The translations under genes were made by a program, and so were the position numbers. A DNA stretch of 64,000 bases from Syntrophales bacterium (GTDB lineage Bacteria > Desulfobacterota > Syntrophia > Syntrophales > UBA2210): assembly GCA_963662405.2 (NCBI GenBank), contig CAXXKT010000001.1, positions 192,001-256,000 on the forward strand, in the 5' to 3' direction. The notes beneath the pieces are model-generated. The model was not told the DNA's origin and made no database searches. It saw nothing but the letters and a program-made list of their open reading frames with translations. Shown in pieces: positions 36,487 through 58,227 of the stretch (its first letter is position 1; every line of letters begins with the position of its first letter).

Positions 36487-36563
36487 ACCCCCGTAGCTCA
36501 GTAGGATAGAGCAACGGATTCCTAATCCGTGTGTCGTGCGTTCGAATCGCACCGGGGGTACCA
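36487..36563 (+). tRNA. tRNA-Arg(CCT)
   Basis: Acceptor stem ACCCCCG/CGGGGGT, anticodon arm ACGGA-TTCCTAA-TCCGT, T arm GTGCG-TTCGAAT-CGCAC, encoded CCA. Confidence 0.97.
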
Positions 36564-39759: not shown

Positions 39760-39792
39760 AAAAACCCCCGTCTTTTGGGCGGGGGCTTTTTT
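39760..39792. terminator. Intrinsic terminator
   Basis: AAAACCCCCG-loop-CGGGGGCTTTT. Confidence 0.75.
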
Positions 39793-39813
39793 CTGGATAT
39801 TATGGTGTATTCG

Positions 39814-40074
39814 TTACCATCGTTCCTTCTTCTGCCGTTCCATGTTGAGCTTTGCTTCTCCGTAGAGCCTCCAGATGCACAGGCCGACGGCGAGGAAGAA
39901 GAGACCGAACATGAAACTGGGTTCGGTATTGAACCGGGTGTCGATCCACCGGCCTGCATAGAGGAACAGAAACGAGGAAGCGACGATCACGAACCCCCAT
40001 ACGCTGATCTGCAATATCTGAGTCAGGTTCGATCTCCAGTTTATCGAGTGATGGTGGTGATGTGTAGTGATCAT
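39814..40074 (-). CDS. Small membrane protein, AtpZ/AtpI-like
   Basis: GRWIDTRFNTEPSF..G pattern between two TM helices. Confidence 0.65.
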   Translation of the reverse strand: MITTHHHHHSINWRSNLTQILQISVWGFVIVASSFLFLYAGRWIDTRFNTEPSFMFGLFFLAVGLCIWRLYGEAKLNMERQKKERW

Positions 40075-40112
40075 TGTTCGAGTCCTCCTTTCGTAGGGTG
40101 TTTACCGTTTCA

Positions 40113-40388
40113 TTAGCTCACGAGGTTTTTGAGCGCGCCCACGACCGGAGCCGTGAAGAGAGCCACCAGGACGGCGTAGAGTGCGAAAGAGCCGACCGCC
40201 TCGCTGAGGTACAGTTTTGAGTACTTGTGTTTCAGAGAGGTGATGATCAAGCCGCCGACGATGAGGCATCCGAGATGGAAGTAAGGGAAGTTGGCCGCGT
40301 TGGTTGCGGTATACTCGGCAAACCCGAAAGAGGCGGTGACGAGCACCACGAAAGCCGCCATGATGATTGTCTGTACTGTCCGTTTCAT
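40113..40388 (-). CDS. Hypothetical membrane protein
   Basis: Signal peptide plus TM segments; GGAGGA RBS. Confidence 0.75.
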   Translation of the reverse strand: MKRTVQTIIMAAFVVLVTASFGFAEYTATNAANFPYFHLGCLIVGGLIITSLKHKYSKLYLSEAVGSFALYAVLVALFTAPVVGALKNLVS

Positions 40389-40443
40389 GAGTATATCCTC
40401 CTTTTTATGTTTCCTTGTTTTCTTTCTTTTGACTTTATACTAA

Positions 40444-40459
40444 TGAAAGAAGCGTGCCA
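40444..40459 (-). promoter_or_regulatory. Possible sigma54 promoter
   Basis: Minus strand TGGCACG-N4-TTTCA versus consensus TGGCACG-N4-TTGCW. Confidence 0.45.
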
Positions 40460-41032
40460 TTTCGCTGACTGGCGGTCAGAATATTTGTAACATATTGAAT
40501 ATGAGAAGGTTGTTGAGGAGAGCGGACTGGCGGAGGGGCACACAACCATGCCCGAACAACATGCCTGATTAAATGAAACATCAAACCGGATTGAATGAAA
40601 TGTTAGAAAAAGAGGGGAATAATAATATCACCGTTTGGGCATGAGCCAGCCGAGGAAACCATACCGAACCAAGCGCTTCCCGGGACGCTGAATATGTCGG
40701 CGGCCTGACTGGCATGTTGCCTGATAGCGGCGCAAATAATCGTATCGTTAAGATATTACTGAAAGCAATTTCATAATATTGCTTCAATCGTAATTCTATC
40801 AATTACAGGAGGAAGCAGAACGCAGTAACATACGAGCTCTGCCCCTGTTGCACCAAATCTCACACGTTTAACTACCGCTTGGGATCAGTTTTGGGGAAAA
40901 TCGATGATTGCCGTTTTAAAGTCTCACTGAAATGTGGCATGGGTGAATGAATTCGAAAAAACAACACTTCAAGAAGCGAGTTAGCAAAAGTCACATCTGA
41001 CGGTCTTACAACAAGCCGGATCGCTTCCTTCA

Positions 41033-41090
41033 CTACTAACAAATGATTTTGATCAAAGGGAAATGCTGAGCTTGACCGTTGGAAGTGTAG
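41033..41090 (+). repeat. Platform B right arm, copy 1 (52/58 identical to 55176-55233)
   Basis: CTACTAACAAATGATTT.GATCAAAGGG...ACCGTTGGAAGTGTAG. Confidence 0.9.
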
Positions 41091-41165
41091 CAAAACGTCT
41101 AAGCTCACCGTCGACACTGGAGCGCAACGGAATTGCCATCCGTGTGTAGCACCTCGCGGTTTTAT
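41090..41165 (-). other. Degenerate attC site after the R-M genes
   Basis: Minus strand ATAAAAC...GCTACACACGG...CGGTGAGC-TTAGAC-GTTTTGC, starting at the REase stop codon. Confidence 0.6.
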
Positions 41166-41905
41166 CAGCCAAGGCGTGCTGCTTCTGCGGCAATATGCCC
41201 GGCTAAAGCCGTCACAAATGCTTTAAGCCCAGTCATTGATGAAAGTTGAGAAAAATCTCCAGAATCTACTGCGCTACGTTCTGCCGCGATTACAGTGGCC
41301 GTTGTATATAGCTGCTCTTGTACAAGCCGCTGACATAGTAAGTCGTATCGCTTAAGGTACGAGGCTCCCTTAAATTCCTCAAAAACTGGAAAGTGTGGCG
41401 ATGAATCCCGCACAGGACTTCTTGACTTTGCGGTATCTTCAACCATTATTAGCCAACCTACAAACGGGCGAGGTTGTTTCCCAAAAGCTCCCTCACGGTA
41501 AGCCGTCCAAAGATCGTGTGCTGTTCCGATGGCTTCTTCAGTCCGATTGTTAAAATTGTTACCAAAAGAGGGCCCTACTTGGCTTTTTAACTCAATCGCG
41601 GCAATTAGCTCTCCCTTGTACATTACTAGGAGATCCCACAATTTTGTTGGCCGGAAATACCCCGGTAGCGTCAGCATCGCCCGGTTCTGGTGTATCTCAG
41701 CACGAGCTAGCCCATTGGCCTTGATGATGTCGAGCACCAAAGCCAAGAAACCATCCATGTTCTTGCCTGCGGTCACGCCTGCACGTTCCCCCTGGTCGGC
41801 TTTTCCAGATTCAATCTGCTTCTGCTTTGCTGCTTCACGGTTGCCCCAAAATGCCTTTACGGCTTCACGGGATTTTTGTTCGTAATCAGCGAGATCAAGA
41901 GCCAT
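41165..41905 (-). CDS. Type II restriction endonuclease, PaeR7I/XhoI family
   Basis: [25 protein letters not shown] and [22 protein letters not shown] motifs. Confidence 0.9.
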
Positions 41906-43633
41906 TTATTCTCCATTGCCTCCAAGGGTAGATCGTTCTTCGTGACTCAGGCCATAAAGCTTGAACACGGCTCGGTCGCAAGCTTCTATGTCTCGCTTTA
42001 TGGCAGCATCAGCTAACTCTCGGCGCAGCAGCGCAGGCACATCTGCCCAGGGAGGAATGCGAATCCGGCGTAGGTACTGTGCTTGGAAACGCAGGAACCC
42101 CCCTCGCATCTTCGTTGAATAGGTCGCCACGAAAAGGCGAGTGACAGAGGACAACAGCACCGCCTGCAAAGCCCGCAAATCCCACTCATTAGATGTGACG
42201 TGGTATAGGTTATGATGTGGGTACAGTACCCCGCCTTCAAAGACGATATGCGCTTCGCCCTTTATGTCAGGTATCAAAAGCTTCGGCTTTGCGCCCAGCG
42301 CGGGGGTAATGCGATCAATCGTTCGATACCAGTTGACTGGAGCTTTCTTTGCACAGTGGCGTCCCGCAATCACGTCGCGGCGAGCTTCAAGGTATCGTCT
42401 CAGGCGCGGATAGGCGTCGAGGTCAACCAGACCACCCGATTCGGCAAATGGATTGATGACCCCTTGTCCTCGCCACTTAACCTCACCCGACATGATGTCT
42501 TTTGTCGTCACCAGTCGAATTTTCCGATCGGGCTCAACATCAAGTGCGTCGAAGTCCCCGATGAATGCCTCATCTGCGCCGGTGGCGACACCAATGCCGA
42601 CTTTGCATCCGGTCTCTTCGAGTGATGGGAAACACTGCTCCAGACGGCGAATGAGCGTCATCTGATCGTAAGATCCCAGCAGCCAAGGTTCAGAACCATT
42701 CGTGACACAGGCAAGTTCACGCACCCCTCCAGACTCTCCCTGCAATGAAGGAGCACGGAGCAAGTCCGCCAGTGCAGTCAGGGTTGCCCGGTCAATAACT
42801 GGACGATGCGCAATGCGAGTTACACCCGGCACTTCACGGCTGATGATCGTTATAGCAGGGTACGTAATCACGTCAGAATGGAACGCTGGGGTATCCACCA
42901 TATCGACATAGACTCTCAAGTGAAACCGTTCTGCCACCAGACTCCGAAGTGGCCCACCATATCGGTTCTTCATCCACCGATCTGTACAGATAAAACCCAG
43001 ACTTCCCTTATCCGACAAGAAAGAAAGCGAGCGCTCGATGAAGGCGATATAGATGTCTGCCCTGTCAAACATTGTCTGGTAGCGGGTTCGGTACTCTGCA
43101 AGCAAGGGCGCTGAAATAAGCTCCTGACGGACGTAGGGTGGATTGCCCACAACAAAATTAAATTCTCCTTCCAGTGGAGCGAGCAGAAAATCCCCCTGTG
43201 ACAGCCACCCGTCAACAAGAGCCGCTGCAGTTTTGGCCGCTATCCCCTCGCGTTTGAGAAGGGTTACTATCGCCGCATAGGTGCTGCGAAAAGTATCATG
43301 ATGCAACTCGACGGCCTTGATCGCGTTGCTCAGGTCGTCCAAGGCAGTGCCATTCGGCTTTGCAGCCCGCCAGGCGCGCAGCAACCGCTCGATGATCGGA
43401 AGCAGGAAATCACCACCACCAAACGATGGCTCCAAAATCCGCATTTCATGGAGCGGCTGATCTTCCGTGTAACCAACAAGATCGAGAATGAACTCAACTA
43501 CCTCGCGACGGGTAAATATCGCTCCACGTGCGTCAGTTTCTGGATTTAACGCCAACTGATCTATCGCAGCCTGCACTTTTTTTGTGATGTACTCAGGATT
43601 TGGGAAGTCGATTGTAATTTGTGATGATTGCAA
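41906..43633 (-). CDS. N6-adenine DNA methyltransferase (gamma class), partner of the REase
   Basis: [16 protein letters not shown] and VGNPPY motifs; directly abuts the REase. Confidence 0.92.
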
Positions 43634-43671
43634 GAAGCTTCCTCTTTGCGTTGGTGTGATATAATACCGCC

Positions 43672-43890
43672 AACAATGAATATGCCCATTAGGTGTTTCC
43701 CGACCTTTCGTGCAATCCTACTTTATTTCACGAAGAATTAAAACAGAAAAATCTAATGTAAAATCAGTACCAATTGATTTTTTCGATTGGTTATTCTGCG
43801 GCAATAAAGAGTAAAATCCTAAGTTGGTAAAACATAGGAGGAATGGCAATGGCTAATAATAAATACCATTTGAAATGATGTATTGACGGA
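43672..43890 (-). repeat. Platform B left arm, copy 1 (homologous to 57685-57870)
   Basis: First 72 nt align ungapped at 53/72 identity with 57685-57756; homology begins at the AAC (GTT on the minus strand). Confidence 0.85.
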
Positions 43891-44059
43891 TCGAATCAAA
43901 TAAACGACAGTGCAGGAAGAATGGCGCAGCAAAACACGAGTTCTGCCCCTGCTGTACCAAATCTCACACGTTGCACCTTGTCCTCACCATCGAGTGCGCC
44001 GAGAGCTCACCGATTGTTTATTGAAGTCGGCATTCTGGGGGGAAGTTTCTGTGTAGCAG

Positions 44060-44429
44060 ATTTCTTTCGGTAATGCGCAGGAATCATCAAAGAAAAAAGA
44101 AATCGTGCTGTTTATTGGTGTCACTTACTACTGCTCAGAATAATTCCAGAGGAAAATCGATGAGTACTGATTGAAAGACTCACGGTAAAATCTCTTGACA
44201 ATACTTCGTCGGATAGTTAGTTAAGTAAGCGTTTTGATCTTGACGGCTTTACTTTTTTGAACTGCTGTAATAACCAAAGGGGAGATTATGGTCTGATCAT
44301 CAAAGCTCCGTTTCTTAAAAAGAGAGATGGAGCTTTTTTTATGAATGTCTCGATCGAATTTTAGGTGTTATGACGCACTTTCCCCTGTTTTTAAGATATT
44401 ATACGAGATCCATATAAACATTGTTAGAC
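44060..44429 (+). promoter_or_regulatory. Platform A copy 1: promoter, leader with Met-Val mini-ORF, terminator, attI-like core
   Basis: TTGACA at 44195; GGGGAGATT-ATGGTCTGA at 44288-44296; hairpin plus U-tract at 44302-44340; ATAAACATT-GTTAGAC at 44423. Confidence 0.8.
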
Positions 44430-44466
44430 GATACCAGTTATTCAATTCAGAGAAGGAATTTAAATA

Positions 44467-45437
44467 ATGGTCACAGTTTTTTTTCATATTCTCACCGCGA
44501 TGAAGATCTGAGGAATGAATTGGAAATTCATCTTTCAGCTCTTAAACGCCAGGGTGTTATCCAAACTTGGCATGATAGGCGAATTGAAGCCGGCAAAGAC
44601 CTTGACGATGAGATCGATTCAAATATTGAGGGTGCAAATATTATTCTTCTTCTCGTAAGCCCCTATTTTATAGCATCAGATTACTGTTATAATGTTGAAA
44701 TGCAACGCGCGATGGACCGCCATGTTAAAGGTGAAGCCAGAGTGATACCTGTCATCCTTCATCCGTGTGACTGGCAACAGACCCCTTTTGGGAAATTGCG
44801 GGCCACACCGACTGACGGCAAAGCTGTCTCAAAATACCCCAATCAGCATGATGCTTTCCTCTCTATTACCAAAGATATACGCCATGTTGCCGAAGAAATA
44901 ACCGGAGGATCAAAAAACGGAAATAATATTTTGAAACAATCACGGTATGTCAGAACAGAGGATATAGTCCCATCTCAATTTGCTGAAAAGCCAAGATCAA
45001 GCAATCTAAGAGTTCGTAGAGAATTTACCGACATTGAAAGGACAAGATTTCTTTCTGGAGCTTTGGGCTATTTTCAGAAATATTTTGAGAACTCTCTTAT
45101 AGAACTTCAGGCTCGTTCTGTTGGGATCGAAACCGAATTCAGAAAAATAGATGCAAACCACTTCATGGCTATGATTTTCAAGAAGGGTAATCTGGTTAGT
45201 CAATGCAAAATCTGGCTTGCAATGGATTCTTACTCGACAGGAGAGATCCGTTACTCTTCGTCTGTGTCTGTCAATGACAACTCTTGGAATGAATCACTTC
45301 ATGTAGAAGATGATGGCTATGTTTTGGGTCTCAAAAGTAGGGGATTTCATCATATTGGTTCCGATTCAGAAACATTATTGTCTAATGAAGGTGGCGCAGA
45401 ACTTTTTTGGAGTATGCTTTTGAATTCTTTACAATAA
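44467..45437 (+). CDS. TIR-domain protein; natural start is frameshifted at a T8 tract
   Basis: FFSYSHRDE, WHDRRI and SDYCYNVE TIR motifs; the ATG at 44467 (AAGGA RBS) is out of frame by one T; the ORF track uses TTG at 44421. Confidence 0.85.
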
Positions 45438-45454
45438 AATGTAAGGAGAAGGCA

Positions 45455-45601
45455 ATGATTAGACAACGTTTCAGATGCAGAAACTGCGGCCGTAGATTCG
45501 AAACCGAGGTATTTGAACCAGGTGAAGCTAAAGAAAAGGGTTTGCCTTCTGGTCCAGTGAGGTGCCCAGATTGTAGAAGCACTGATGTAGAAAGAATTTA
45601 G
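45455..45601 (+). CDS. Small zinc-ribbon protein (48 aa)
   Basis: CRNC...CPDC motif; AAGGAG RBS; lies inside the TIR cassette. Confidence 0.75.
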   Translation: MIRQRFRCRNCGRRFETEVFEPGEAKEKGLPSGPVRCPDCRSTDVERI

Positions 45602-45641
45602 TCTTTTGTATTTGCCAGATAGGCAATATACTGATCAACAC

Positions 45642-45713
45642 GTCTAACAAGTCGCTGGAGAATCGACGGGAACACGCTGGTGCGTTTCCCGCGTCTCAGC
45701 TCCATCGTTATAC
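45642..45713 (+). other. attC site
   Basis: GTCTAAC...GCTGGAG / CTCAGC...GTTATAC with inner GGGAAC.CGC/GCGTTTCCC stem; GTCTAAC is complementary to GTTAGAC at 44423. Confidence 0.85.
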
Positions 45714-45752
45714 AAAACAGAGGCCACATGCCAAATTCACGAACAGGAAATC

Positions 45753-48194
45753 ATGAAACTTGACGATTGGAAAGCAGAAACAAAGACGCGATTACCCACT
45801 AGCGCGGTTTATAGTGTTCTAAAAGAGAAGTGTAACAGGGACTCAGCTGGGCATCAAGTGTTGGAACTCGTTGATACCGCTACCTACTATGCATATCAAA
45901 GAACCAAAAGTATAATCCGGCATATGGGAGAGTTTACTCTCCATGATGGAGACCATCTATTCCGTGTGCTGTCGCTGCAGGAACGGTTGCTTTCCAATGG
46001 GCAATTGCGTTCGCTCAATGTTCCTGAACTCATGTTAATGATTTTGTCGGCGTTTTTTCATGATATTGGGATGGCGCCTGATGAACAAGACGTAATAGCA
46101 TGGAAAAAGATATGGGATACTACACCTCAATTTGAGAGCGGTACGGAAGAATTGGAGTATCAAAAATTTGAAAGGTTCTATTTCGCGAGGCCTGATGATC
46201 GCGATAGGGTTGAGCAATGCCTTCGCCGCGGAGATCATACTGGGGCAGACTGTGCTAAAGCTCATGTGGTTAGTGATTATATAAGGACGACACATGCGGA
46301 GCGAGCTAGGCAAATCATTAAGAAAGATTGGATGAATAAGATCGTATATCGCGATACTGACCTTACGGTTGAGTTTGCAGGGATTTGCTTCAGCCATAAC
46401 GAAGATCCACTTTCTTTGCTGGATCTTGATCCCGGTTATTTGTGTGGCCCTGATCTTTATGCAAACTTGCAACTTGTGGCCATTCTTTTAAGACTATCAG
46501 ATATTCTGGATTTCGATGCCAAAAGAACACCATCTATCCTTTTTTCTCACTTGTATGTGCGAAATCCAGTTTCCATTAGTGAATGGAACAAACATCGTTC
46601 GGTAGAGGCGTGGAGCATAACACCTGAAATTTTACAATTTCATGCAAAATGCCGTCATCCGGCTATTGAGGCGTCGATAAATGCTTTTTGTGATCTCATA
46701 GATATCGAGTTGGGTGCATGCAATAATATTGTCGCATCAATAAATAAATTCGATCGTCGTTTTTCTTCATCTGCTATTATGCTCCCCCTAAGAGTTGATC
46801 GAACCAAGGTTGAAACGGTGAAAGATATAGAAGGAAAGCCGGTTTACCTATATCGACAGACGCAGTTCAATCTAAGCAAAAAGCAAGTTATAGATTTGTT
46901 GATGGGAACGAAACTCTACGGTAATCCAGAGGTGGCTTTGAGAGAACTGATCCAGAATTCAATTGATGCTTGCCTGTTAAGGCAGGCACTAGAAGCTTCT
47001 TGGAAAACCAATTACACTCCGAGAGTAAATATTAAATATTATTCTATGGATGGGCAAGATATTCTTGAGGTAGAAGACAATGGAACCGGTATGGATCAGC
47101 ACATTATCGATGCATATTATTCAAAAGTAGGGTCTTCCTTCTATAAGTCTTCCGAGTTCTATGAGCTGAAGTCTCAGGCCAGAGCTAGTTTTACGCCAAC
47201 ATCAAGATTTGGAATTGGGATCTTATCATGTTTCATGGTCGCGGATACGCTAATTGTCGATACAAGACGTGTATATGGACCGCATGAATCAAGTAAACCG
47301 TTGAATGTTACTATCGAAGGACAGGAAAGCATTTTCTGGATTAAATCCGGCAGCCTGTCAACTCCGGGCACTACAACTAAATTATTCCTTCGAAAAACAG
47401 GAAATCCCTGGGATAGGATGGATGAAAACGAATTCATTACATCGGTGGAAGGAATTATTTCAAATCCGCCATTTGAAATAAAGATAGAGACATCTTCTCA
47501 TAGCAAGTCCAGGGATGCCTCAAGCTTTCTCCAAGTGCATGCAAATAACTTAGAAAATCGTTCATGGGAGGAACACGATAACGTTCGGAAGATATCTATC
47601 GAATTTGATGATCCCGCAAGAGGCTTTGTCGGTTCCGCTGTTGTTGCCATATTAGAGAGTCATGGCTTCCCAGTGCCTAAGTTAGAAATGACTTCTCAGA
47701 CAGTCGATATTAATGGTGAACCGTACGAACTTGGAAAGAGCATCGCTATTATTGAGAATGAAATAGAAGAGTCAGCAACAACTATTTCAATAGACGAAAA
47801 TGGAGATATTGATCAATCGAATTCATATCGTTCACTGAACAAGTCCATATCTCAGCTATCTCTGCATGGTATTGAGGTGCCTACCACATTATTTCCTGCA
47901 TCGTGGAGGATGCAAAAGAATCAGGTTAAGCTTTCATGGCCATTCCCTATAATATTGGTGGTGGATGTTTGTGGAGACGCTGATCTAGATCTCAATTCGT
48001 CGCGTACGCAGATAATAATGTCGGAAAAATGGGTCGAGTTTGAAAAACGGCTGTCATTTGAAATATGTTCGAAGCTTGCAGACTCTGTGTCTCGGGATTA
48101 CTGGGAAAAACTTAGAAATGTGTTGTTGTCAAATACGAAAAACCCAATCTTTTCTCAGAGTGTAAACGAAGTTGAAAAAAGCTACAACGTATAA
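45753..48194 (+). CDS. HD-domain (HD-CE-like) + HSP90-like HATPase protein, putative defence
   Basis: FTLHDGDH...FFHDIGM; LYGNPEVALRELIQNSIDA, DNGTGMD and SRFGIG motifs. Confidence 0.85.
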   Translation: MKLDDWKAETKTRLPTSAVYSVLKEKCNRDSAGHQVLELVDTATYYAYQRTKSIIRHMGEFTLHDGDHLFRVLSLQERLLSNGQLRSLNVPELMLMILSAFFHDIGMAPDEQDVIAWKKIWDTTPQFESGTEELEYQKFERFYFARPDDRDRVEQCLRRGDHTGADCAKAHVVSDYIRTTHAERARQIIKKDWMNKIVYRDTDLTVEFAGICFSHNEDPLSLLDLDPGYLCGPDLYANLQLVAILLRLSDILDFDAKRTPSILFSHLYVRNPVSISEWNKHRSVEAWSITPEILQFHAKCRHPAIEASINAFCDLIDIELGACNNIVASINKFDRRFSSSAIMLPLRVDRTKVETVKDIEGKPVYLYRQTQFNLSKKQVIDLLMGTKLYGNPEVALRELIQNSIDACLLRQALEASWKTNYTPRVNIKYYSMDGQDILEVEDNGTGMDQHIIDAYYSKVGSSFYKSSEFYELKSQARASFTPTSRFGIGILSCFMVADTLIVDTRRVYGPHESSKPLNVTIEGQESIFWIKSGSLSTPGTTTKLFLRKTGNPWDRMDENEFITSVEGIISNPPFEIKIETSSHSKSRDASSFLQVHANNLENRSWEEHDNVRKISIEFDDPARGFVGSAVVAILESHGFPVPKLEMTSQTVDINGEPYELGKSIAIIENEIEESATTISIDENGDIDQSNSYRSLNKSISQLSLHGIEVPTTLFPASWRMQKNQVKLSWPFPIILVVDVCGDADLDLNSSRTQIIMSEKWVEFEKRLSFEICSKLADSVSRDYWEKLRNVLLSNTKNPIFSQSVNEVEKSYNV

Positions 48195-48250
48195 CAAGGT
48201 TTTTACAGGGATCGCAAAAACCGCGCGTTTGCTGAAAAACAACGTTATGC
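48189..48250 (+). other. attC site
   Basis: GTATAAC (contains the stop codon)...GTTTTTACAG / CTGAAAAAC...GTTATGC; GTATAAC is the exact complement of GTTATAC at 45707. Confidence 0.85.
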
Positions 48251-48275
48251 GTTTTGTGCATAAGGGGAAGTTAAA

Positions 48276-50087
48276 GTGAAGCTCGAACGATTGACATTGA
48301 AGAATTTTCGTGGCTATCGCGACGAAACCCCAATTCAGTTCGATGATCTAACCGCATTCATTGGAAGAAATGACGCAGGGAAGTCCTCGGTATTGGAGGC
48401 TCTTGAGATCTTCTTCAATAGCTCCTTAATCACTTGTGAACGTGAAGATCTTTCCATCGAGGCGCAAGGACACAATATAGAAATTGCATGCATTTTTTCT
48501 GAGGTCCCAGATCAAATCGTAATTGATGCGGCGAGCCCAACAAATCTGGCAGACGAGCACCTTCTTAATGGTGACGGCAATCTGGAGATTAAGAAGATCT
48601 TCCCAGCGACTGCCGCGAAACCGAAGGAAAAGATTTATATCAGTTGTATGCATCCATCGATTGAGGGTGCTGCCGACTTGCTCGAATTAAAACGAACGGA
48701 GTTGCGAGCACGTGCAGCGGAACTTGGTGTTCCAGAGGATAGTTATAATGGCAATGTAAATGCATCAATACGTCAGGCCATACGGCAACATATAGGTCAC
48801 CTCAACCTCACTCCTGTGGAACTACTGGTCGATAAAGAGGACACGAAGAAGGTTTACGACACAATCAAGGACTATCTGCCGATCTATGCGCTGTTTCAAT
48901 CTGATCGGCAAAGTCGTGACGATGACAAGGAAGTTGCAGACCCAATGAAATTGGCTGTTCAACAGGCGTTGCATGATCTCGCACCCGAGTTGGAGCACAT
49001 CAAGACTGAGGTCCGCGCTAGGGCAATAGAAACCGCGAATCGGACACTAATCAAGCTTCGAGAAATGGTGCCAGAGTTGGCTCGTGAGCTGACTCCGGAG
49101 TTCAAAGCGGAACCTAAATTCGATTCTCAGTTCAAGTTGTTGATCAAGTCGGAAGATGACATTGCAGTGAATAAGCGCGGCAGCGGAGTTCGGCGGCTCA
49201 TCTTGCTGAACTTTTTTCGTGCGGAGGCTGAACGCAGGCAGAGTGACGCGGTAGCATCTGATGTTATTTACGCCTTCGAAGAACCTGAAACCTCACAGCA
49301 TCCAGATCATCAAGAAATGTTGATGAGAGCATTTTTGGAGCTGGCTAACGCTCCAGGTAGCCAAATTATCATTACAACTCATACCCCAGCGCTGGCAGGT
49401 TTCCTGCCCCTGGAAAGCCTACGTTTCATTGAGCGTGAGGGGCATAGCCGAACCGTTGAGTCAGGGAACGATGATGTATTTCAGAAGGTCGCAGACACGT
49501 TGGGCATCCTTCCCGACCCAATTCCCAAAAATGCAACGGCCATCCTCCTCGTTGAAGGCAAGAGTGACATTTCATTCGTTCACCATACTGCGGAGCAATT
49601 GAAGGACGGCGGCCATCTGGACGCAACATTTGAAGACCGCAGATTTGCAATCGTACCAATAGGTGGGTGCGGTAATATCAAGCATTGGCGAACCCTTCAA
49701 CTGGCGAATCAATTTGGCGTGCCCTATTGTGTACTCCTTGACTCGGACCTCGGTACTCCCGAAGAGGCTGAGAACAGGCGAAAAGTCGCGGAACTGAAAG
49801 CCGACGGTATCAAAGCGTACCTCACGCGGAAACGCGAGCCAGAAAACTATATTCATCTCGATTGTCTCAATCTTCCAGCAAGCAGCACATTCACCATTAG
49901 TGATACGGACGACGCCAAAGTAAAAATAGGCCATGAGAAAGGGACTCGAAGGGCCACCGTCCTGGAAGATTATTGGGTGTTGATGACCTGCGAGCAAATT
50001 CGGGAGGTTGAAAAGTATGCTGACGGAGACACTGAAAAGTTCGAATTCACAGAGATGTTTCGGGACTTTTTGTCGCTTACCAATTGA
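48276..50087 (+). CDS. OLD-family ATP-dependent nuclease (ABC ATPase + TOPRIM)
   Basis: GRNDAGKS, RGSG, FEEPE..HP and THTP motifs; TOPRIM LVEGKSD and LDSD. Confidence 0.88.
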   Translation: MKLERLTLKNFRGYRDETPIQFDDLTAFIGRNDAGKSSVLEALEIFFNSSLITCEREDLSIEAQGHNIEIACIFSEVPDQIVIDAASPTNLADEHLLNGDGNLEIKKIFPATAAKPKEKIYISCMHPSIEGAADLLELKRTELRARAAELGVPEDSYNGNVNASIRQAIRQHIGHLNLTPVELLVDKEDTKKVYDTIKDYLPIYALFQSDRQSRDDDKEVADPMKLAVQQALHDLAPELEHIKTEVRARAIETANRTLIKLREMVPELARELTPEFKAEPKFDSQFKLLIKSEDDIAVNKRGSGVRRLILLNFFRAEAERRQSDAVASDVIYAFEEPETSQHPDHQEMLMRAFLELANAPGSQIIITTHTPALAGFLPLESLRFIEREGHSRTVESGNDDVFQKVADTLGILPDPIPKNATAILLVEGKSDISFVHHTAEQLKDGGHLDATFEDRRFAIVPIGGCGNIKHWRTLQLANQFGVPYCVLLDSDLGTPEEAENRRKVAELKADGIKAYLTRKREPENYIHLDCLNLPASSTFTISDTDDAKVKIGHEKGTRRATVLEDYWVLMTCEQIREVEKYADGDTEKFEFTEMFRDFLSLTN

Positions 50088-50090
50088 AAC

Positions 50091-50152
50091 ACATAACATC
50101 TTGCAGATAAGGACGTGCAAAACTCCCCGCGCCTCATAGCATTGCGTTAATG
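50091..50152 (+). other. attC site (partly degenerate)
   Basis: ACATAAC just after the stop codon...GTTAATG; 62 bp; ACATAAC is near-complementary to GTTATGC at 48244. Confidence 0.65.
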
Positions 50153-50154
50153 AT

Positions 50155-50363
50155 TACTGAAAGTCTCACGGGGGAAATTTCTTGACATGACGCTACTATA
50201 CAGCTAGTAGTTTAGAAGCTTCATCGGTCTTGACCGCTTTATATAGGTTTTTGAACAGCTGTAACCGGAGGGGATTATGGTCTGATCATCAAAGCCCTGT
50301 TTCTCAAAATGAGAGATAGGGCTTTTTGTTTTGTGTGAACGCCCTAGAATAATACTGTTAACA
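50155..50363 (+). promoter_or_regulatory. Platform A copy 2
   Basis: TTGACA at 50182; GGAGGGGATT-ATGGTCTGA at 50277-50285; AAAGCCCTGTTTCTC/GAGAGATAGGGCTTTTT terminator; AATAATACT-GTTAACA at 50357. Confidence 0.8.
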
Positions 50364-50381
50364 GTAGAAAACGGGTGACAT

Positions 50382-52703
50382 ATGAACCCTACTTTTATTG
50401 ATATTCACATTCATACATCGGAGAATCCAGACAAACTCAACCCAAACTATGACGTTAACTCATTGTATGAAAATGTGACCAAGGTCGCGCATGAAGCAGA
50501 TACACTAATATCATTGTCAGATCATAATGTTATAAATGAAAATGCCTACCTAAAAGCCTTACATAAATTCCCCAATATGCTTATCGGATGTGAGTTGCAC
50601 ATTCGAAACTATCAGAATAAACCTCCCTATCATTGCCATATTCTTTTCGGTACTCCAACGATAGATCACGAAACTATTTCGAAGATCAATGAATCCCTGC
50701 TAAAATTATATCCGAAGAAGGTTGTTAAAAATGCAGATACAAACATTCCAGAAATACAAGACATCATAAAAGAATTTGAGGAATACGACTTTCTGGTTCT
50801 TCCTCATGGTGGACAGTCCCACTCAACTTTTGACATATCCATTCCTGATGGCGTTATATTCGACAGCAGTCTTGAAAGAAGTATTTATTACAACACCTTT
50901 GACGGATTCACTGCAAGAAGCAACAAAGGTCTAGAAAAAACAATTGAATATTTCAAGCGCCTCGGAATTAACGATTTTGTCAATCTCATTACTTGCACGG
51001 ACAACTACAATCCCCAAAAATATCCTAGTCCAAAAACAGATGAATATGAAGAATATATCCCTACTTGGATGAACTCATTGCCAACATTTGAAGGCCTAAG
51101 ACTTGCTCTATCAGAATCATCTCGGCTTTCGTACCAAAGTGACCCCCCCGGTAGATGGTCGGAATACATCAAATCGGTGCACTTGTCGAATCCCAGAATA
51201 GAAATCGACGTCAATTTGAGTGAGGGCTTAAATGTGGTTATTGGTGGTTCATCAAGTGGAAAGACTCTTTTTGTAGATTCCTTGTATTGCAAGATCGTTA
51301 ACAATTATGAGGAGAATGTTTATGTCAAGTCGCAATATCCTGTCAAGGATATAGACGTCAACAATCCTTCAGGATTGACTCCACATTATATCAACCAAAA
51401 CTATATTACTAAAATTGTCGATACCAAGAACAATGAGACGAGAATTGATGATATTGAGATAATAAAAACCCTATTTCCAGACGATAACGAGGCAAAACTC
51501 AACATCCAACGGTCATTGCATGACTTCAGAGAGTGTTTCAAGGAACTCCTAAGTAGTGTGAAAGCAATAGAGGAGATTCAGAGTTCCCTGAAAAGGATAC
51601 CCTTCCTTTCGCAGTTGATATTGTTGGCAAAAGTAAAAGATAACGTGATTGAGAAACTTCTGCCATCTCCAGAGCAAATACAATTAATTCATATTTCCAA
51701 AGCTTTGCACCACTCATATTCTGAACATCTTGAACAAATAGATAACTTTTTGACAAATAATCCGGTCATTGACCACGATCCATCTTTGGTTATGAGGTTA
51801 AAAGATGAATTGGATCTAGCGTTTTCCTTCTCTCATTCTGAGGAACTTGTCAGAGCCATAATCGAGAAAAAGAAAGCCGACCAGAAAGCTTGGCTTCTCC
51901 AGTTGAACAAAGAAGGACAGCAAAAAAAAGATTCCTTTAACGATCTGACACGATTTTTTACCAATTACAACATCGCAGTCAAGAAATTCAATAACTGCTT
52001 AATAAGGCTTGGTAAATTCGATACAAAGGCGCAATCAAACACAATTAAAGCAATGGGACATATATTGTATATCGAAAACCAATTTTGCATAAATAGCAGT
52101 ACGTTTATCGATATTCTGAACCAATTTCTAAAAAAGGAAAATCAGATTGAATCGATGGACACTTTACACCCAGAGTCGCTATTCTTCGCCAATTTCAAGC
52201 AAAAGCCTAAGATCAGCGATTATGATGATTTGGAGTCTAAGGTGTACGCTAAATTCGAAGGCCTTAATAAGAAATCATTCAAAATCACTACTAGCGACGG
52301 AAGGGATTTTGATAACCTAAGTGCTGGTTGGAAAACATCTGTAATATTGGACTTACTCTTAGGCTATGAAGAGGATTTTGCTCCCATAATAATCGATCAA
52401 CCCGAGGACAATCTTGCGAATCCTTATATAAACAGGGGGCTGATCAAAGCTATCAAGGATATCAAACCAAAGAAACAAATAATTCTAGTGTCGCATAATG
52501 CCACGATACCAATGTTGGGTGATGCTCAGACTGTTGTTGTTTGCAAAAACGAAGAAAATAGGATTGAAATAAGATCCGCCAAACTTGAGGGTAACATAAA
52601 CTCAAAAAAGGTTGTCGATCATATTGCCGAGTTGACAGATGGCGGCAAGGTATCGATCAAAAAGAGGGTCAAGAAATACAACCTTAGAAAGTTCAGGGAA
52701 TGA
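50382..52703 (+). CDS. PHP phosphoesterase-ABC ATPase fusion (Ppl/TrlF-like), putative defence
   Basis: DIHIHT, SDHN, GCE and TD PHP motifs; GGSSSGKT, LSAG, IIDQPEDNL and SHNA ATPase motifs. Confidence 0.85.
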   Translation: MNPTFIDIHIHTSENPDKLNPNYDVNSLYENVTKVAHEADTLISLSDHNVINENAYLKALHKFPNMLIGCELHIRNYQNKPPYHCHILFGTPTIDHETISKINESLLKLYPKKVVKNADTNIPEIQDIIKEFEEYDFLVLPHGGQSHSTFDISIPDGVIFDSSLERSIYYNTFDGFTARSNKGLEKTIEYFKRLGINDFVNLITCTDNYNPQKYPSPKTDEYEEYIPTWMNSLPTFEGLRLALSESSRLSYQSDPPGRWSEYIKSVHLSNPRIEIDVNLSEGLNVVIGGSSSGKTLFVDSLYCKIVNNYEENVYVKSQYPVKDIDVNNPSGLTPHYINQNYITKIVDTKNNETRIDDIEIIKTLFPDDNEAKLNIQRSLHDFRECFKELLSSVKAIEEIQSSLKRIPFLSQLILLAKVKDNVIEKLLPSPEQIQLIHISKALHHSYSEHLEQIDNFLTNNPVIDHDPSLVMRLKDELDLAFSFSHSEELVRAIIEKKKADQKAWLLQLNKEGQQKKDSFNDLTRFFTNYNIAVKKFNNCLIRLGKFDTKAQSNTIKAMGHILYIENQFCINSSTFIDILNQFLKKENQIESMDTLHPESLFFANFKQKPKISDYDDLESKVYAKFEGLNKKSFKITTSDGRDFDNLSAGWKTSVILDLLLGYEEDFAPIIIDQPEDNLANPYINRGLIKAIKDIKPKKQIILVSHNATIPMLGDAQTVVVCKNEENRIEIRSAKLEGNINSKKVVDHIAELTDGGKVSIKKRVKKYNLRKFRE

Positions 52704-52936
52704 GCATGAAAATGCATTTTTCAAGAAGCGATACTGGCGAAACTGTGGTGCAACTTATCGAAAATGGGGATGCGTTACCTTTCAATTACATTACACTTGT
52801 GAAGCATCTGATCGTTAATGCGAATCTGGAAGAGACAACATTTGATGAAGAGTTTTCCTCTGAAGAACAGGCTGCTGTGAATTCAATGGCTGAACGTCTT
52901 GTAGAGGCATGTAAAAAAGAACCGAAGGCCAGCTGA
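52700..52936 (+). CDS. Small acidic hypothetical protein coupled to the PHP-ATPase
   Basis: ATGA overlap with the upstream stop codon. Confidence 0.65.
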   Translation: MSMKMHFSRSDTGETVVQLIENGDALPFNYITLVKHLIVNANLEETTFDEEFSSEEQAAVNSMAERLVEACKKEPKAS

Positions 52937-53063
52937 GTTGCAGGGTACCTGTTTATTACCAGAATTATACAATAACTCGATCCCGATTAGTTTTCTAGAC
53001 TTCAGGAAAAATTTAATAAACCATGGACTTAGGCTGTTCTATTATGATCTGCTCGGGCAATTC

Positions 53064-53129
53064 CTAGACGTACGCGATCTTTAACTTCTGGCCGACGTAG
53101 ATCCGATTCCGGAACCTTATCTTGTTAAC
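53064..53129 (-). pseudogene. C-terminal LysM-domain remnant
   Basis: VNKIRFRNRIYVGQKLKIAYV* resembles the end of a LysM domain; the upstream sequence is unrelated. Confidence 0.5.
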
Positions 53130-53148
53130 TTGAATCAGAAATATTGAA

Positions 53149-53469
53149 ATGCCAACTTTTTTAGAAATGAAGATTGATAACGATATTGAAAATATTCTTA
53201 AAGATACCATTAGAGATATCTTTGAATGTAAGGACGAAGAAAAAAGACTGGCCATTGATGTATTCTTTGAGTTGGCAAAAGATTGTTCGATCCCATCAAA
53301 TGTTTTGGATAAAATTCTTTATTATTTTATAAATTTTCATGGACCTAATAAAGCTGGGAATAGAGTAGCAGCTAATATTTTTAAACAGAAGTTTGATGAG
53401 TCATATAACAGCTCGGATTTTAGCCAACTTCTAGCAATGATGAAGCATGATCAGGATAAAGGATCATAA
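53149..53469 (+). CDS. Hypothetical protein
   Basis: ORF track, AT-rich, no recognisable motif. Confidence 0.5.
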   Translation: MPTFLEMKIDNDIENILKDTIRDIFECKDEEKRLAIDVFFELAKDCSIPSNVLDKILYYFINFHGPNKAGNRVAANIFKQKFDESYNSSDFSQLLAMMKHDQDKGS

Positions 53470-53607
53470 AGAGGACAAATAAGATAGGGGCAGAGGCTTT
53501 TTGACTGAACATTGCTAATTACTAAAAAGAAATCTACAAATTGTGGTGATTACTTGTATTTGTAGTCAATAAATGTGGGAAATGGATTCACGGCTTGGCT
53601 TTCAATC

Positions 53608-53954
53608 CGTACTGTTCAGGCAGGATAAAGGAAAATGCCAGAGTGTCGGTTATTGACGCCACCTACTACTGCTCAGAATAATTCAATTAGAAAATCAACA
53701 ATTACTAATTGAACGTCTGATGGTAAAATCTCTTGACAATACATTATCATAGAGTTAGCTAGAAAATGATTTTGGTCTTGATTGTTTCTGCTTGTGAGCA
53801 GCTGTAGCCAAGGGGGATTATGGTATGATCATTAAAGCCCTGTTTCTCAACGCGAGAGATGGGGATTTTGTTTTTTGTGGACAGGTTATGTTGATATCGA
53901 TGTTGCCGGATGAAGAATGGGTTTTTATCAGGATCCAGATAAACATTGTTGAAC
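53608..53954 (+). promoter_or_regulatory. Platform A copy 3
   Basis: TTGACA at 53733; AGGGGGATT-ATGGTATGA at 53820-53828; hairpin plus U-tract at 53834-53876; GATCCAGATAAACATT-GTTGAAC at 53948. Confidence 0.8.
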
Positions 53955-53970
53955 TCATAAGGAAAATTGA

Positions 53971-54999
53971 GTGGAAGATTTACATCAAGAGTTTTTGAAA
54001 ACACTCAATGAGGTGATTGAGAAAAATCCAGAAAAAGCAGATGAGATTGATATTGAGCAACTCATAGCAGATGTAACCCCAGAAGCCGTTCGCTTAATAA
54101 AAAGCTCTCTTCTAAAATCCGCGAAAAAGATGCTTAAGGAGAGGCGAAAGTTAGCTAAAGGCTTCGAAAAGCGGAACATAAAACGCTGGTCTAAAGCATT
54201 CGATTTATTAGAGTCTCACATTGTTATATGTACAGAGGCAGGAGAAGAATTCAACTCATCGTATAGACCAACTGCTGCTGAGGAAAACAATTTAGTATTT
54301 GATATTGTTGTCAGACATCATGCAAGAGCCTGTCATATTGCACAGGAAATTCTATGTCTCTTAAAGGCAGGTTTTGCTGATGCTGCTCATGCCAGATGGC
54401 GTGCTCTCCATGAAGTAACCGCGACAGGAATGTTCATAGCTAGACATGGTCATGATTGTGCAGAGAGATTCTATTTTCATGACATTGTTGATTCTTACGA
54501 CGGAATGCTTGAGCACAAAAAGTACGAAGATCGGCTCCAGGAAAAGGCACCCTCCCAAGAAGAGCTCGATAGCTGCAAAGTAGAATATGACGAACTGATT
54601 GCACGATACGGTAAGAAATTTGCAGATCATTATGGTTGGGCTTCATACTTGTTCCCAAAACATAGGCGAGTAGGTTTTACAGCAATAGAAAAGAATGTTG
54701 GCTTGGATCATATGCGCCCCTACTATAGGTGGGCTAGCCAGAATATACATTCGGGCTCTAAAGGAATGAGAAACCGTCTCGGACTGTGTGAGGCAAAAGA
54801 CGATATTCTACTGGTTGGGCAAAGTAATTCAGGAATGACAGATCCTGCTCATGCAACAGCTATTAGTTTAAACCAAATTACTTGTGCTCTTTTGATGCTT
54901 GAGCCTACGTTAGATCATATTGTGATCATGAAAATAGCTGATGAATTTCAAAATGATGTGGGGGAAGCATTCCTAGAGATAGAGCGAAATGATTCATAA
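53971..54999 (+). CDS. DUF5677-like protein
   Basis: EILCLLKAGFADAAHARWRALHE and YYRWASQNIH patterns. Confidence 0.7.
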   Translation: MEDLHQEFLKTLNEVIEKNPEKADEIDIEQLIADVTPEAVRLIKSSLLKSAKKMLKERRKLAKGFEKRNIKRWSKAFDLLESHIVICTEAGEEFNSSYRPTAAEENNLVFDIVVRHHARACHIAQEILCLLKAGFADAAHARWRALHEVTATGMFIARHGHDCAERFYFHDIVDSYDGMLEHKKYEDRLQEKAPSQEELDSCKVEYDELIARYGKKFADHYGWASYLFPKHRRVGFTAIEKNVGLDHMRPYYRWASQNIHSGSKGMRNRLGLCEAKDDILLVGQSNSGMTDPAHATAISLNQITCALLMLEPTLDHIVIMKIADEFQNDVGEAFLEIERNDS

Positions 55000-55061
55000 C
55001 AAATCAATTAAGCGGAAAATCAGGCCTGCGGCCTATTTTCCGCTTATCTCAGTCGTTAATA
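54994..55061 (+). other. attC site
   Basis: TCATAAC (contains the stop codon); TAAGCGGAAAAT.AGGC/GCCTATTTTCCGCTTA stem; GTTAATA. Confidence 0.85.
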
Positions 55062-55175
55062 ATTTTTGAAAGAAATCCTTGCAATTGTTTCAATATTTAT
55101 TTTATCGGTTACAGGAAGAATCGCGCAGCAAAAGTATTTCTCGGACACTCCTGCGGCGATTTTCCCACTCTTCAC

Positions 55176-55233
55176 CTACTAACAAATGATTTCGATCAAA
55201 GGGGAATACTGAGGATTACCGTTGGAAGTGTAG
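55176..55233 (+). repeat. Platform B right arm, copy 2
   Basis: 52/58 identical to 41033-41090. Confidence 0.9.
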
Positions 55234-55292
55234 TAGAATACCAGTTTCACTGGCACCAACTGTTTGGCGTCCAGTGCAAAAAGATGTTAGCA
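55233..55292 (-). other. Degenerate attC of the DUF3800 cassette
   Basis: Minus strand TGCTAAC-ATCTT-TTTGCACTGGACGCC...GGTGCCAGTGAAA...ATTCTAC (the R' G appears mutated). Confidence 0.65.
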
Positions 55293-55300
55293 TTTCATCC

Positions 55301-56527
55301 TAGTACCATGTAACATAATATGTTTCGTATTTATAAAAGGTATGATAGACTGGCGGCAAACCAACAGAGGAGGTTGCCATGTCGCCAAGATATCGAGTAA
55401 CCCTTACCAAAGAAGAACGCAAAGAGCTTGAGGCAATGACCCATAGAGGAAAGACCCATGCCCGAAAATTCATCCATGCCCGCGCATTACTTTTGTGCGA
55501 TGCCGGCTCTGACGGTCCGGCATGGAACGTGTCCGATGTTGCAGAGGCGCTTGGGGTGTCGAGCCGTTCGATCGAACATCTCAAAAAGCGCTTTGTTGAA
55601 GAGGGGCTTGAAGCAGCTCTCGAACGCAAGGCACGGGAAAAGCCTCCGAGAGACATCATTTTTGACGGTGCATTTGAGGCACGATTAGTCGCATTGGCCT
55701 GTTCAGACACTCCCGAAGGACATCGTCGCTGGACGGTCAGATTGCTTGCCGACAAAGCTGTCGAGCTTGGCATTGCCGATTCCGTATCACACATGACCGT
55801 ACAGCGGATTTTAAAAAAAACGAACTTAAGCCTCACATCAGCAAATACTGGAAAATCCCTCCCGAAGGGAGCGCGGCCTTTGTAGCATGCATGGAAGATG
55901 TTTTGGAGATATATCATCTGCCCTATGATCCCGACTATCCGGTTGTCTGCATGGATGAATCCTGCAAGCAACTGATAGGTGAAGTTCGAGAGCCGATGCC
56001 ATGCGCACCGGGAAGGCCGATGCGAACAGACGACGAGTATGTCAGAAACGGGGTAGTGGAAATATTTATGGAAGTTGAGCCCCTTGCTGGCAGAAGACAT
56101 GTGGCGATCACGGAACATCGAACAAGAAAGGATTGGGCGATGCAGACCAGGCAGATGCTTGATGAACGCTATCCCAGCGCCCTCAAGGTTCGTCTGGTCA
56201 TGGACAACCTGAACACCCATACAATCGCCTCACTCTACGAAACATTCAAACCCGGGGAAGCCAGGCGTTTAGCGGAACGACTCGATATCCATTATACGCC
56301 TAAACACGGAAGCTGGCTGAATATGGCAGAGATCGAGCTCAGCGCCCTGAAAGGACAATGCCTTAATCGCCGGATTCCCGACATAACGACCATGCGAACC
56401 GAAGTGGCCGCATGGGAAAAAGATCGAAACAACAGCGCGAAAAACATTGTATGGCAATTTACTACTCCTGATGCTCGCATTAAGTTGAAGCGCCTTTATC
56501 CGAAGCTATAAACGTTACATGGTACTA
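55301..56527 (+). mobile_element. IS630-family insertion sequence
   Basis: Perfect terminal inverted repeats GTACCATGTAAC/GTTACATGGTAC flanked by TA on both sides. Confidence 0.95.
55379..56511 (+). CDS. IS630 transposase, two ORFs joined by a -1 frameshift at A8 (55813-55820)
   Basis: HTH ORF (RWTVRLLA) then DDE ORF (CMDE, MDNLNTH, GSWLNMAE); the shift restores LKKNELKPH. Confidence 0.92.
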
Positions 56528-56538
56528 GTATCTTTAAC

Positions 56539-57657
56539 TCATTGTTTTTCTAGAAAATCACCAATTTTTTCAAAATGTATTTTTTCCATTTTTTCGATTG
56601 TTTTTTTCCCTTCGTCAATTTGTTCATCACTTACGTCACACTTTGAGAGTTTATATAACCACCCTCTGGCAATAATTTCAGAGGAAAGCCTTGAGATATA
56701 GAACGATTCTGTAACATCGAGTAATTTATTTTTTAAACTAGCGTTTGCTATTTTATCGTTTCTTTGTGAAAGCCATAAAAAAATATCAACGGCCTGAAGA
56801 CTCACGATCTGCTTTGACATTGCCAGTGAAAATTGTCCAAGATCGTAATCAACTTGATCAACCTGTAAGCCCAATCCACTTGAATTGTGTTCAAGCCTGA
56901 ATTTCTGAAATATTTTATGGTATTCCCTCATTGTAGAACCAAATTCTGACTGAGAATGATGAACAAAGGCTTTTGGTTTTGTATTGTTTTCTTTACAGAA
57001 TTTGTGAACAGCCTGAATTAAACTTGAAAAAGCAACCATGTTGGGAGTATGCTCCTTGTATGACTTTTTTGTTTGGCTTGCCAATAGTGTAATTTCATCA
57101 GGGTATTTAAGTGCAAAATTAAGACCTTCAGTAGCAACTTGGTGGAGTCTTTTATCAACACTTATAAGATCAAGCCGTTGCAATACGATGTTTATCACTG
57201 ATCTAATTCCAGTAAAATCATCTTTGAGATAATAATCCCAGAAATTCTTTTTGTCTTCTTCAAAAAGAAGGTCATCAAAAAGAATACATAACGTATGTCT
57301 AAAAAACTCGTGATTATACCATAACCACCGTGCACCTTTATTTTCGTAAGAGTCGAAAAGACTATCAACAAATTTCGTCACTGATAAATAAGGCTTTTCA
57401 ATGACCGTTAAGTGAAAAACCCATTTTATATTTTCGAGGAGATCTAAAAATGAAGTTGCTATTCTTTCTACAAGATGAGGTTTAATTTCGTTCGCATGAA
57501 GTCTATCTACACCCAATTCAAATTTATACTTTTCAGCAACTTCATTTAGCAAAGGTTCAGTATCAATTTCCGAGATTATTGCTCCTTGAAAGTAAAAAAG
57601 TGGCTCATTAAAAATGTGGCGTCCTGAATGCCCAGACTCATCGGCGTAAATATACAT
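56539..57657 (-). CDS. DUF3800-like protein
   Basis: N-terminal YIYADESG, LHANE and C-terminal LQAVD motifs. Confidence 0.75.
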   Translation of the reverse strand: MYIYADESGHSGRHIFNEPLFYFQGAIISEIDTEPLLNEVAEKYKFELGVDRLHANEIKPHLVERIATSFLDLLENIKWVFHLTVIEKPYLSVTKFVDSLFDSYENKGARWLWYNHEFFRHTLCILFDDLLFEEDKKNFWDYYLKDDFTGIRSVINIVLQRLDLISVDKRLHQVATEGLNFALKYPDEITLLASQTKKSYKEHTPNMVAFSSLIQAVHKFCKENNTKPKAFVHHSQSEFGSTMREYHKIFQKFRLEHNSSGLGLQVDQVDYDLGQFSLAMSKQIVSLQAVDIFLWLSQRNDKIANASLKNKLLDVTESFYISRLSSEIIARGWLYKLSKCDVSDEQIDEGKKTIEKMEKIHFEKIGDFLEKQ

Positions 57658-57684
57658 TTTTATATTCGTTTCTTATCGGATGTT

Positions 57685-57870
57685 AACAATTAATATACTT
57701 GGTGGGTATTTTCCAAACTTTTGTACAACCCTACTTCAATTCATGAAAAATGAAAAGCGGAAGTTTCGTCGTGAAATCAAGTACAATTGGATTTTGACCA
57801 ATGGGTATTTTGTGGTAATGAAAAATGGCAGCAGTTCAACAAATACTGTTTGAAGTAGCGCATTGCCCTG
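57685..57870 (-). repeat. Platform B left arm, copy 2
   Basis: Homologous to 43672-43890; starts at the GTTAACA core on the minus strand. Confidence 0.85.
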
Positions 57871-58227
57871 AAAATTACTGAACACTCACTTACAGGAAGG
57901 AGCAGATAATCTACATGAGCCTAAAATGTACAGCCCGAGTTGTCCTACCTTTCAACCCACATTTAATAAGGTTGACCGACAAATTGTGGTGATGACTTGT
58001 ATTTGAAGTCTCGCACATCTTTGATGAAAGCAGTTTCATAGATTTCAGAAGGAAGGTGTCTGGATTTTACGAAATCCAAATAATAAACTTTCCAGGCTTA
58101 GAGTGCTTCGGGCCGTTGCATTTGGCCTCTGCGCGGTGGTTGTGAAACATTTGAGAAATAGATGGACTTGAAAGGAGTGGCCACATGAAAAAGGGTGGCC
58201 CTCTCACAGAATCGAAAAGACCACCCA

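What the first reader, a model, noticed from the sequence alone, without database searches (positions are those of the whole stretch)
41033..57870. Same minus-strand site filled by two different cassettes (R-M versus DUF3800)
Seen: the sequence upstream of the methylase (from 43672) and upstream of DUF3800 (from 57685) is homologous, 53/72 ungapped and continuing for ~200 bp. Homology starts exactly at the core AAC. The sequence beyond each cassette's attC is also homologous (41033-41090 versus 55176-55233, 52/58). So both flanks are shared and only the content between the GTT core and the attC differs. This is within-window evidence of site-specific cargo exchange. The right arm itself has an attC-like outline (ACTAAC...CTGAG...CGTTGG).
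Basis: seen in the sequence. Interest (0 to 1): 0.75.

Follow-up and report, generated by a model that had tools for sequence, protein, structure and literature searches.

The report
Integrase-less integron docks, swapped cargo
The two look-alike sites are copies of an integron's gene-docking site that lost its enzyme gene; across related bacteria the same frame holds many unrelated gene cassettes, and the matching enzyme gene was not found in this genome.

Summary
Observation confirmed: 53/72 and 52/58 identity, ending at the cores. The left arm is the attI-plus-promoter head of a canonical integron class with a ~430-aa IntI. Of 57 heads, 7 lie beside a full intI and 7 beside a fragment. In the window intI is gone after about five codons, replaced by a conserved 65-bp tail. 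The right arm is not an attC; it belongs to an intergenic repeat family. The frame (head, cassettes, right arm) occurs at 13 loci in 6 genomes, three in this one, each with unrelated cargo. Corrections: copy 2 carries an IS630 between gene and attC, and its core reads ATT; the R-M attC is degenerate; no empty site was found. The cognate long integrase was not found in this genome, and four of the six frame-bearing genomes gave no integron-integrase match. The exchange is therefore probably old and both cassettes probably locked. This is a CALIN variant that kept attI. The scan already noted integrase-less attI docks on other DNA of this genome and in other genomes; this head class and its frame are what this finding adds.

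The parts
36487..36563 (+). tRNA-Arg(CCT); its last 48 bases are repeated ~40 kb away, bounding the prophage-like island that holds the finding
   Evidence: integrase, terminase gpA and methylase on the far side
41031..41095 (-). Right arm, copy 1: member of a ~63-bp intergenic repeat family; not an attC
41090..41160 (-). Degenerate attC of the R-M cassette (right half typical by eye, inverse core lost); core G at 41096
   Evidence: box assignment by eye
41165..41905 (-). XhoI-family type II restriction endonuclease
   Evidence: Pfam PF04555 E 3e-107; PADLOC REase_II; 89.8% to plasmid copies
41906..43633 (-). Type II adenine methyltransferase (Eco57I/TaqI_C domains)
43672..43854 (-). Left arm, copy 1: attI head of the long-IntI integron class, from core G 43674 to the relic intI start (ATG 43843 on +)
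   Evidence: profile of intI-linked heads matches positions 1-181, E 2.5e-27
43855..43919 (-). Conserved non-coding tail standing where intI was, bounded by CTTCCTG
44122..44339 (+). Repeated promoter/leader/terminator module with its upstream P5 repeat (homologue of the right arm); further copies at 50158-50331 and 53660-53875
44364..44425 (+). Second integrase-less attI, copy of the attI next to the genome's intact IntI-A (85%); core G at 44423
44421..50152 (+). Plus-strand cassette array: TIR (ThsB-like), HD-CE/HATPase, OLD/AriA-like, with attC-type sites whose cores are at 45707, 48244 and 50146 (the last folds poorly)
53971..55061 (+). DUF5677 gene with attC (core 55055)
55173..55238 (-). 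Right arm, copy 2
55233..55292 (-). attC of the DUF3800 cassette: good stem, core reads ATT instead of GTT (55239), spacer one base short
55301..56527 (+). IS630-family element inserted at a TA between the DUF3800 stop and its attC
   Evidence: HTH_32 and DDE_3; identical second copy; bounds
56539..57657 (-). DUF3800 gene
   Evidence: PF12686 E 3.4e-6; no PADLOC hit
57685..57830 (-). Left arm, copy 2: attI head (core G 57687; relic ATG 57825 on +), with a ~33-bp deletion
   Evidence: profile positions 1-135, E 7e-27
57837..57899 (-). Tail, copy 2

Best explanation
Both sites are integrase-less integron platforms. SHOWN: the left arm is the attI and intergenic head of an integron class with a divergent ~430-aa IntI; here intI is replaced by a non-coding tail; the right arm is an intergenic repeat fused behind the last attC; the frame recurs with unrelated cargo. 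INFERRED: the frame formed once in the family and spread with islands and by recombination between repeats. An IntI encoded elsewhere or passing through inserted cassettes at the G|TT of the head or at attC sites. Older cassettes were dropped by attC x attC excision, which swaps the terminal attC without ever emptying the site. In the window both cassettes are now probably locked (degenerate attC; ATT core plus IS630).
For: 7 of 57 heads beside a full divergent intI, 7 beside a fragment, 21 with the tail, 7 behind the promoter module, 15 other; core G in 54 of 57. Window arms match a profile built only from intI-linked heads. 13 of 41 heads examined have the right arm within 4 kb, against 0 of the 10 intI-linked ones. 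Cargo DNA of the 13 shares only one 43-bp attC stretch. Left and right arm distances correlate (Mantel rho 0.41, p 0.024, 11 frames). A sibling island has a head and tail at the same position with another three-gene cassette and an intact attC. Shared cassette pool: the third frame holds a relative of the 143-bp element repeated in the IntI-A array (86%); DUF5677 occurs in a frame and in the window's plus-strand array. G034 has two frames and a full long intI with this head.
Against: No recombination was observed. No long IntI was found in this genome. 4 of the 6 frame-bearing genomes, one of them a single contig, gave no integron-integrase match at E<=1e-40. IntI enzymes are described as strictly specific for their own attI (PMC2095811, passages), though IntI1 did use short attI2 sites (PMC12901181, passages). 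Tail-bearing heads are not one clade (at least 3 changes forced, with imperfect labels), so heads may have been grafted by homologous recombination. The Mantel test includes same-genome pairs. No near-identical frame pair with different cargo was found (left arms at most 82% alike). Each arm also occurs alone.
Confidence: 0.75

Rival explanations
1. Cargo differs because whole arrays were grafted between dispersed heads and repeats by homologous recombination; every cassette was loaded while an intI was still adjacent, and the orphan frames were never reloaded.
For: The genome holds dozens of related intergenic repeats. A tail-bearing head groups with intI-linked heads of its own family (99/92). 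Most frame-bearing genomes show no IntI.
Against: The right arm begins exactly after the terminal attC core with different attCs in front, leaving no shared sequence for a homologous crossover on the cassette side. No intI-linked array ends in the right arm (0 of 10).
Confidence: 0.13
2. The frame is a non-autonomous mobile element moved as a unit by another recombinase (for example the two-tyrosine-recombinase elements of this genome), carrying its cassettes with it.
For: Both outer ends are sharp and followed by varied flanks. Frames sit in unrelated gene neighbourhoods. Two-recombinase elements in this genome are inserted at the same two boundary motifs, and one starts right after a right-arm-like repeat in L156.
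Against: The two ends share no core or duplication. Tail and right arm each occur without the other. No pre-insertion site was looked for in relatives. This rival addresses spread, not loading.
Confidence: 0.09
3. The site is a secondary (attG-type) genomic hot-spot unrelated to any integron platform.
For: Cassettes without a nearby intI can arise by insertion at GWT sites (bioRxiv 10.1101/2022.09.11.507474, passages).
Against: The arm is homologous over ~180 bp to the attI-intI intergenic region of intact integrons, up to the intI start codon.
Confidence: 0.03

Closest known systems
CALIN / SALIN: attC clusters or single attC sites lacking an integron integrase (Cury et al. 2016, PMC4889954, passages read; Loot et al. 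preprint 10.1101/2022.09.11.507474, passages read)
   Same: Cassettes with attC and no intI nearby; loss of intI and action of an integrase encoded elsewhere are among the origins those papers list.
   Different: Here the attI head is kept and identified, intI is replaced by a shared tail, the array has a shared right flank, and the frame is multi-copy. IntegronFinder looks for attI only of classes 1-3 by exact match (PMC4889954), so such heads are not surveyed.
Complete integron (intI, attI, Pc, attC cassettes) of the long-IntI class in the same bacterial class
   Same: Same head sequence, same G|TT crossover, same orientation of cassettes away from the intI start.
   Different: No integrase gene; promoter function untested; terminal attC sites decayed.
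attG secondary sites (10.1101/2022.09.11.507474, passages read)
   Same: Insertion at G|WT away from an intI gene.
   Different: The target is a true attI homologue of ~180 bp, not a short genomic motif.
Integron-borne phage defence cassettes (10.1101/2024.07.02.601719, search listing only)
   Same: The window's cargo includes R-M, TIR, OLD-like and Ppl-like genes.
   Different: 0 of 15 framed cargo proteins from relatives hit PADLOC at 1e-8, so the frame is not shown to be defence-specific.

Membership tests
Complete integron | intI gene adjacent to attI | tested here: not met
   No intI sequence beyond ~5 codons in either copy; only IntI-A (intact) and IntI-B (frameshifted) elsewhere in the genome.
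Complete integron | attI with G|TT core at the head of the array | tested here: met
   Homology to intI-linked heads; core G in 54 of 57, conservation ends at the core.
Complete integron | Pc promoter driving the cassettes | tested here: inconclusive
   Consensus scans at chance level; the reads laid were contigs, not RNA.
CALIN/SALIN | attC site(s) downstream of cassette genes | tested here: inconclusive
   DUF3800: stem and inverse core present (p 0.005) but ATT core. R-M: degenerate. Clear attC sites in several related frames and in the plus-strand array. No covariance model was run.
CALIN/SALIN | no integron integrase nearby | tested here: met
   Nearest intI copy (frameshifted) about 200 kb away; the intact one about 2 Mb away.
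attC site (right arm) | paired L boxes with extrahelical base; foldable bottom strand | tested here: not met
   1-4 of 7 pairs in 12 rows; folding z -0.72 to +1.14.
attG secondary site | genomic site unrelated to attI | tested here: not met
Active cassette platform | IntI-dependent insertion or excision at the site | not testable with these tools
   No joint across either cassette among 15 of 27 joints shown; contigs drop rare forms.
Non-autonomous mobile element | matching ends or target duplication, and a pre-insertion site | tested here: inconclusive
   Ends sharp but unlike each other; pre-insertion site not searched.

The most novel reading that the evidence does not exclude
Tail-attI-cassettes-right arm is a portable, integrase-free docking module that spreads between islands through boundary motifs also used by two-recombinase elements. 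It is reloaded in trans by non-cognate or visiting integron integrases, so a cell runs many small cassette docks of three attI classes off one shared enzyme.
Probability: 0.2. Interest if true: 0.75.

Novelty: new variant of a known kind. Interest (0 to 1): 0.45.

Why it matters
The origin of CALINs is an open question: most lack an intI pseudogene (PMC4889954). Here the lost-integrase route can be read directly, since the head survives, intI is cut at its start, and one frame holds 13 unrelated cargoes. If such docks are still loadable in trans, attI specificity is looser in nature than described and integron capacity in these anaerobes is undercounted. If they are fossils, the finding is a well-resolved but ordinary case of integron decay.

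Tried and rejected
Empty site: a junction pattern gave 2 metagenome hits, neither with arm homology. In 38 family genomes it gave 16 hits at 2 mismatches against 11 in the reversed control; two were filled right arms and none of the others matched an arm. None of 57 heads is followed by the right arm's first bases. Viral contigs: 0 right-arm hits. Eroded intI remnant in the tail: not significant for either window copy (p 0.49 and 0.59). Right arm as attC: rejected. A at the right core as a sign of a shifted crossover: A-type arms are slightly closer to each other (p 0.02), but the tree test is not significant (105 of 500 shuffles; 23 rows). An internal CG of the arm is lost by transition in 8 of 21 rows (by eye; my note says 9), so ordinary CG decay suffices. 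Right arm's first bases as the 3' half of attI: one supporting case; the attC heuristic was too strict to test it. The R-M attC score used a wrong offset and is not used; the first tally was mis-anchored and replaced. R-M as a known cassette: not in a cassette on the one plasmid read, and no attC seen by eye after 5 close relatives. Rfam: only the tRNA reaches a gathering score. Literature: searches listed no paper on multi-copy integrase-less attI frames; one search was swamped by unrelated words. No supplements were read, and subscription journals are not covered.

Full report
Setting. The window is G000:C1:192001-256000. Record titles of right-arm pattern hits read Syntrophales, Syntrophaceae or Deltaproteobacteria. 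The finding lies in the low-GC cargo part of a ~40-kb island that starts at tRNA-Arg(CCT); the last 48 bases of the tRNA recur at C1:268415-268462 next to an integrase. The island carries terminase gpA and a methylase, and four sibling regions share its core at 88-96%.

Observation. Both identities hold exactly (53/72, 52/58) and fall to 16/60 and 12/60 on the cargo side. Copy 1 holds a type II R-M pair and copy 2 a DUF3800 gene. Three points need correcting. An IS630 separates the DUF3800 stop from its attC. The right core of copy 2 reads ATT. The R-M attC folds no better than shuffles; by eye only its right half is typical.

The left arm is an attI head. It is found in 17 of 38 family genomes, and a query from an intact integron hits 114 of 339 class genomes. 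In G002 it lies directly before a divergent 429-aa intI. Among 57 distinct heads that reach the core, 7 have a full intI, 7 a fragment, 21 a conserved tail, 7 a promoter module and 15 something else. The 11 bases before the core are 80-100% conserved, G is present in 54, and 55 different 12-mers follow. A profile built from intI-linked heads alone matches the window arms at E 2.5e-27 and 7e-27, up to the intI start in copy 1. Beyond about five codons no intI sequence is detectable.

The right arm is an intergenic repeat. It occurs in 14 of 37 other family genomes and 6 of 301 outside the family. It is related to the P5 unit upstream of a repeated promoter/leader/terminator module (mean 27.9 matches against 21.9 shuffled) and is sometimes fused to that promoter instead of an attC. 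It has attC-like box spacing but no stem.

The frame recurs. Of 41 heads examined with flanks, 13 in 6 genomes have the right arm within 4 kb; none of the 10 intI-linked heads does. A third frame in this genome (C1:881089-881850) holds a GIY-YIG gene. The 13 cargoes share no DNA except one attC stretch; they include DUF169, HicB, DUF6994, DUF5677, PemK/RHH and HNH genes. Left and right distances correlate weakly (rho 0.41, p 0.024; 11 frames, two dropped for truncated arms). Each arm also occurs alone, including five right arms with more than 6 kb upstream and no head.

Wider genome. Profiles find 7 heads of this class without intI, 3 orphan copies of attI-A and 4 of attI-B; 6 of those 7 A/B orphans lie directly behind the promoter module. 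One heads the window's plus-strand TIR/HD-CE/OLD array. A sibling island has a head and tail at the position of copy 2, with another cassette and no right arm.

Which enzyme. This genome has one intact IntI (IntI-A, 49% to the long type) and one frameshifted copy; no long IntI was found. Four of six frame-bearing genomes gave no IntI match; G034 has the long type. One paper calls IntI strictly specific for its own attI (PMC2095811, passages); another shows IntI1 using short attI2 sites (PMC12901181, passages). Loading through attC sites needs no cognate enzyme (established integron mechanism, recalled; relaxed attC specificity is stated in PMC2095811).

Mechanism. Insertion at G|TT followed by attC x attC loss of the older cassette changes the cargo and the terminal attC while both arms stay, so an empty site need never appear (inference). 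None was found. At the right junction 10 of 25 cassette-type arms have A, 14 have G and one is deleted (by eye), against 2 of 57 with A at the left. This fits decay of a CG pair that then locks the last cassette; a shifted crossover is not supported.

Comparison and verdict. It works like an integron platform and files as a CALIN/SALIN variant that kept attI. CALINs, their origin by intI loss and their possible use in trans are in print (PMC4889954, passages). My searches listed no description of a multi-copy framed attI, which is weak evidence given the library's limits. Earlier notes of this scan describe integrase-less attI docks in this genome and in others; they are leads, not support. 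Interest 0.45.

Noticed in passing
window 44171-44339, 50158-50331, 53709-53875; about 50 profile hits in G000: Repeated TTGACA promoter followed by a ribosome-binding site, a start-X-stop mini-frame (21 of 28 rows) and a terminator hairpin. Similar leaders precede both intI genes. No Rfam match. Looks like an attenuator of unknown trigger.
   Followed up: partly
G000:C1:2211885-2212937 and C1:30602-31643: Both integron integrases of this genome are co-oriented with their cassette arrays, with attI downstream of intI; the first has an IS between intI and attI.
   Followed up: no
G000:C1:2214390-2214533 and six or more other places: A 143-bp gene-less, attC-like element repeated through the IntI-A array; an inverted relative lies in the third frame.
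   Followed up: no
L053, L058, L066, L130, L133, L141, L142 (first bases after the head): Seven heads, with and without intI, are followed by the same GC-rich structured element and have a GTA core; its nature is unknown.
   Followed up: no
G000:C1:131290-133415 and 159785-161945: Two-tyrosine-recombinase elements inserted at the same CTTCCTG and GTAGGTG motifs that bound the frame.
   Followed up: partly
window 36600-40925 vs G000:C1:2626651-2630972: The first 4.3 kb of the island is 98.8% identical in a sibling island at another tRNA, which suggests recent exchange between islands; a small two-gene unit (39760-40460) has five or more copies.
   Followed up: no
window 50382-53000: Ppl-like PHP/ATPase gene behind a promoter module without a recognised attI or attC.
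   Followed up: no
window 45645-45698 with 55235 and 57706: Contigs in the probable source sample join an attC like that of the TIR cassette to both arms, possibly a further frame in another community member; G034 has such an attC before its right arm.
   Followed up: no
L202: In G184 the related restriction gene shares ~20 bases past the stop with the window and is followed by a P5-like repeat without an attC.
   Followed up: no
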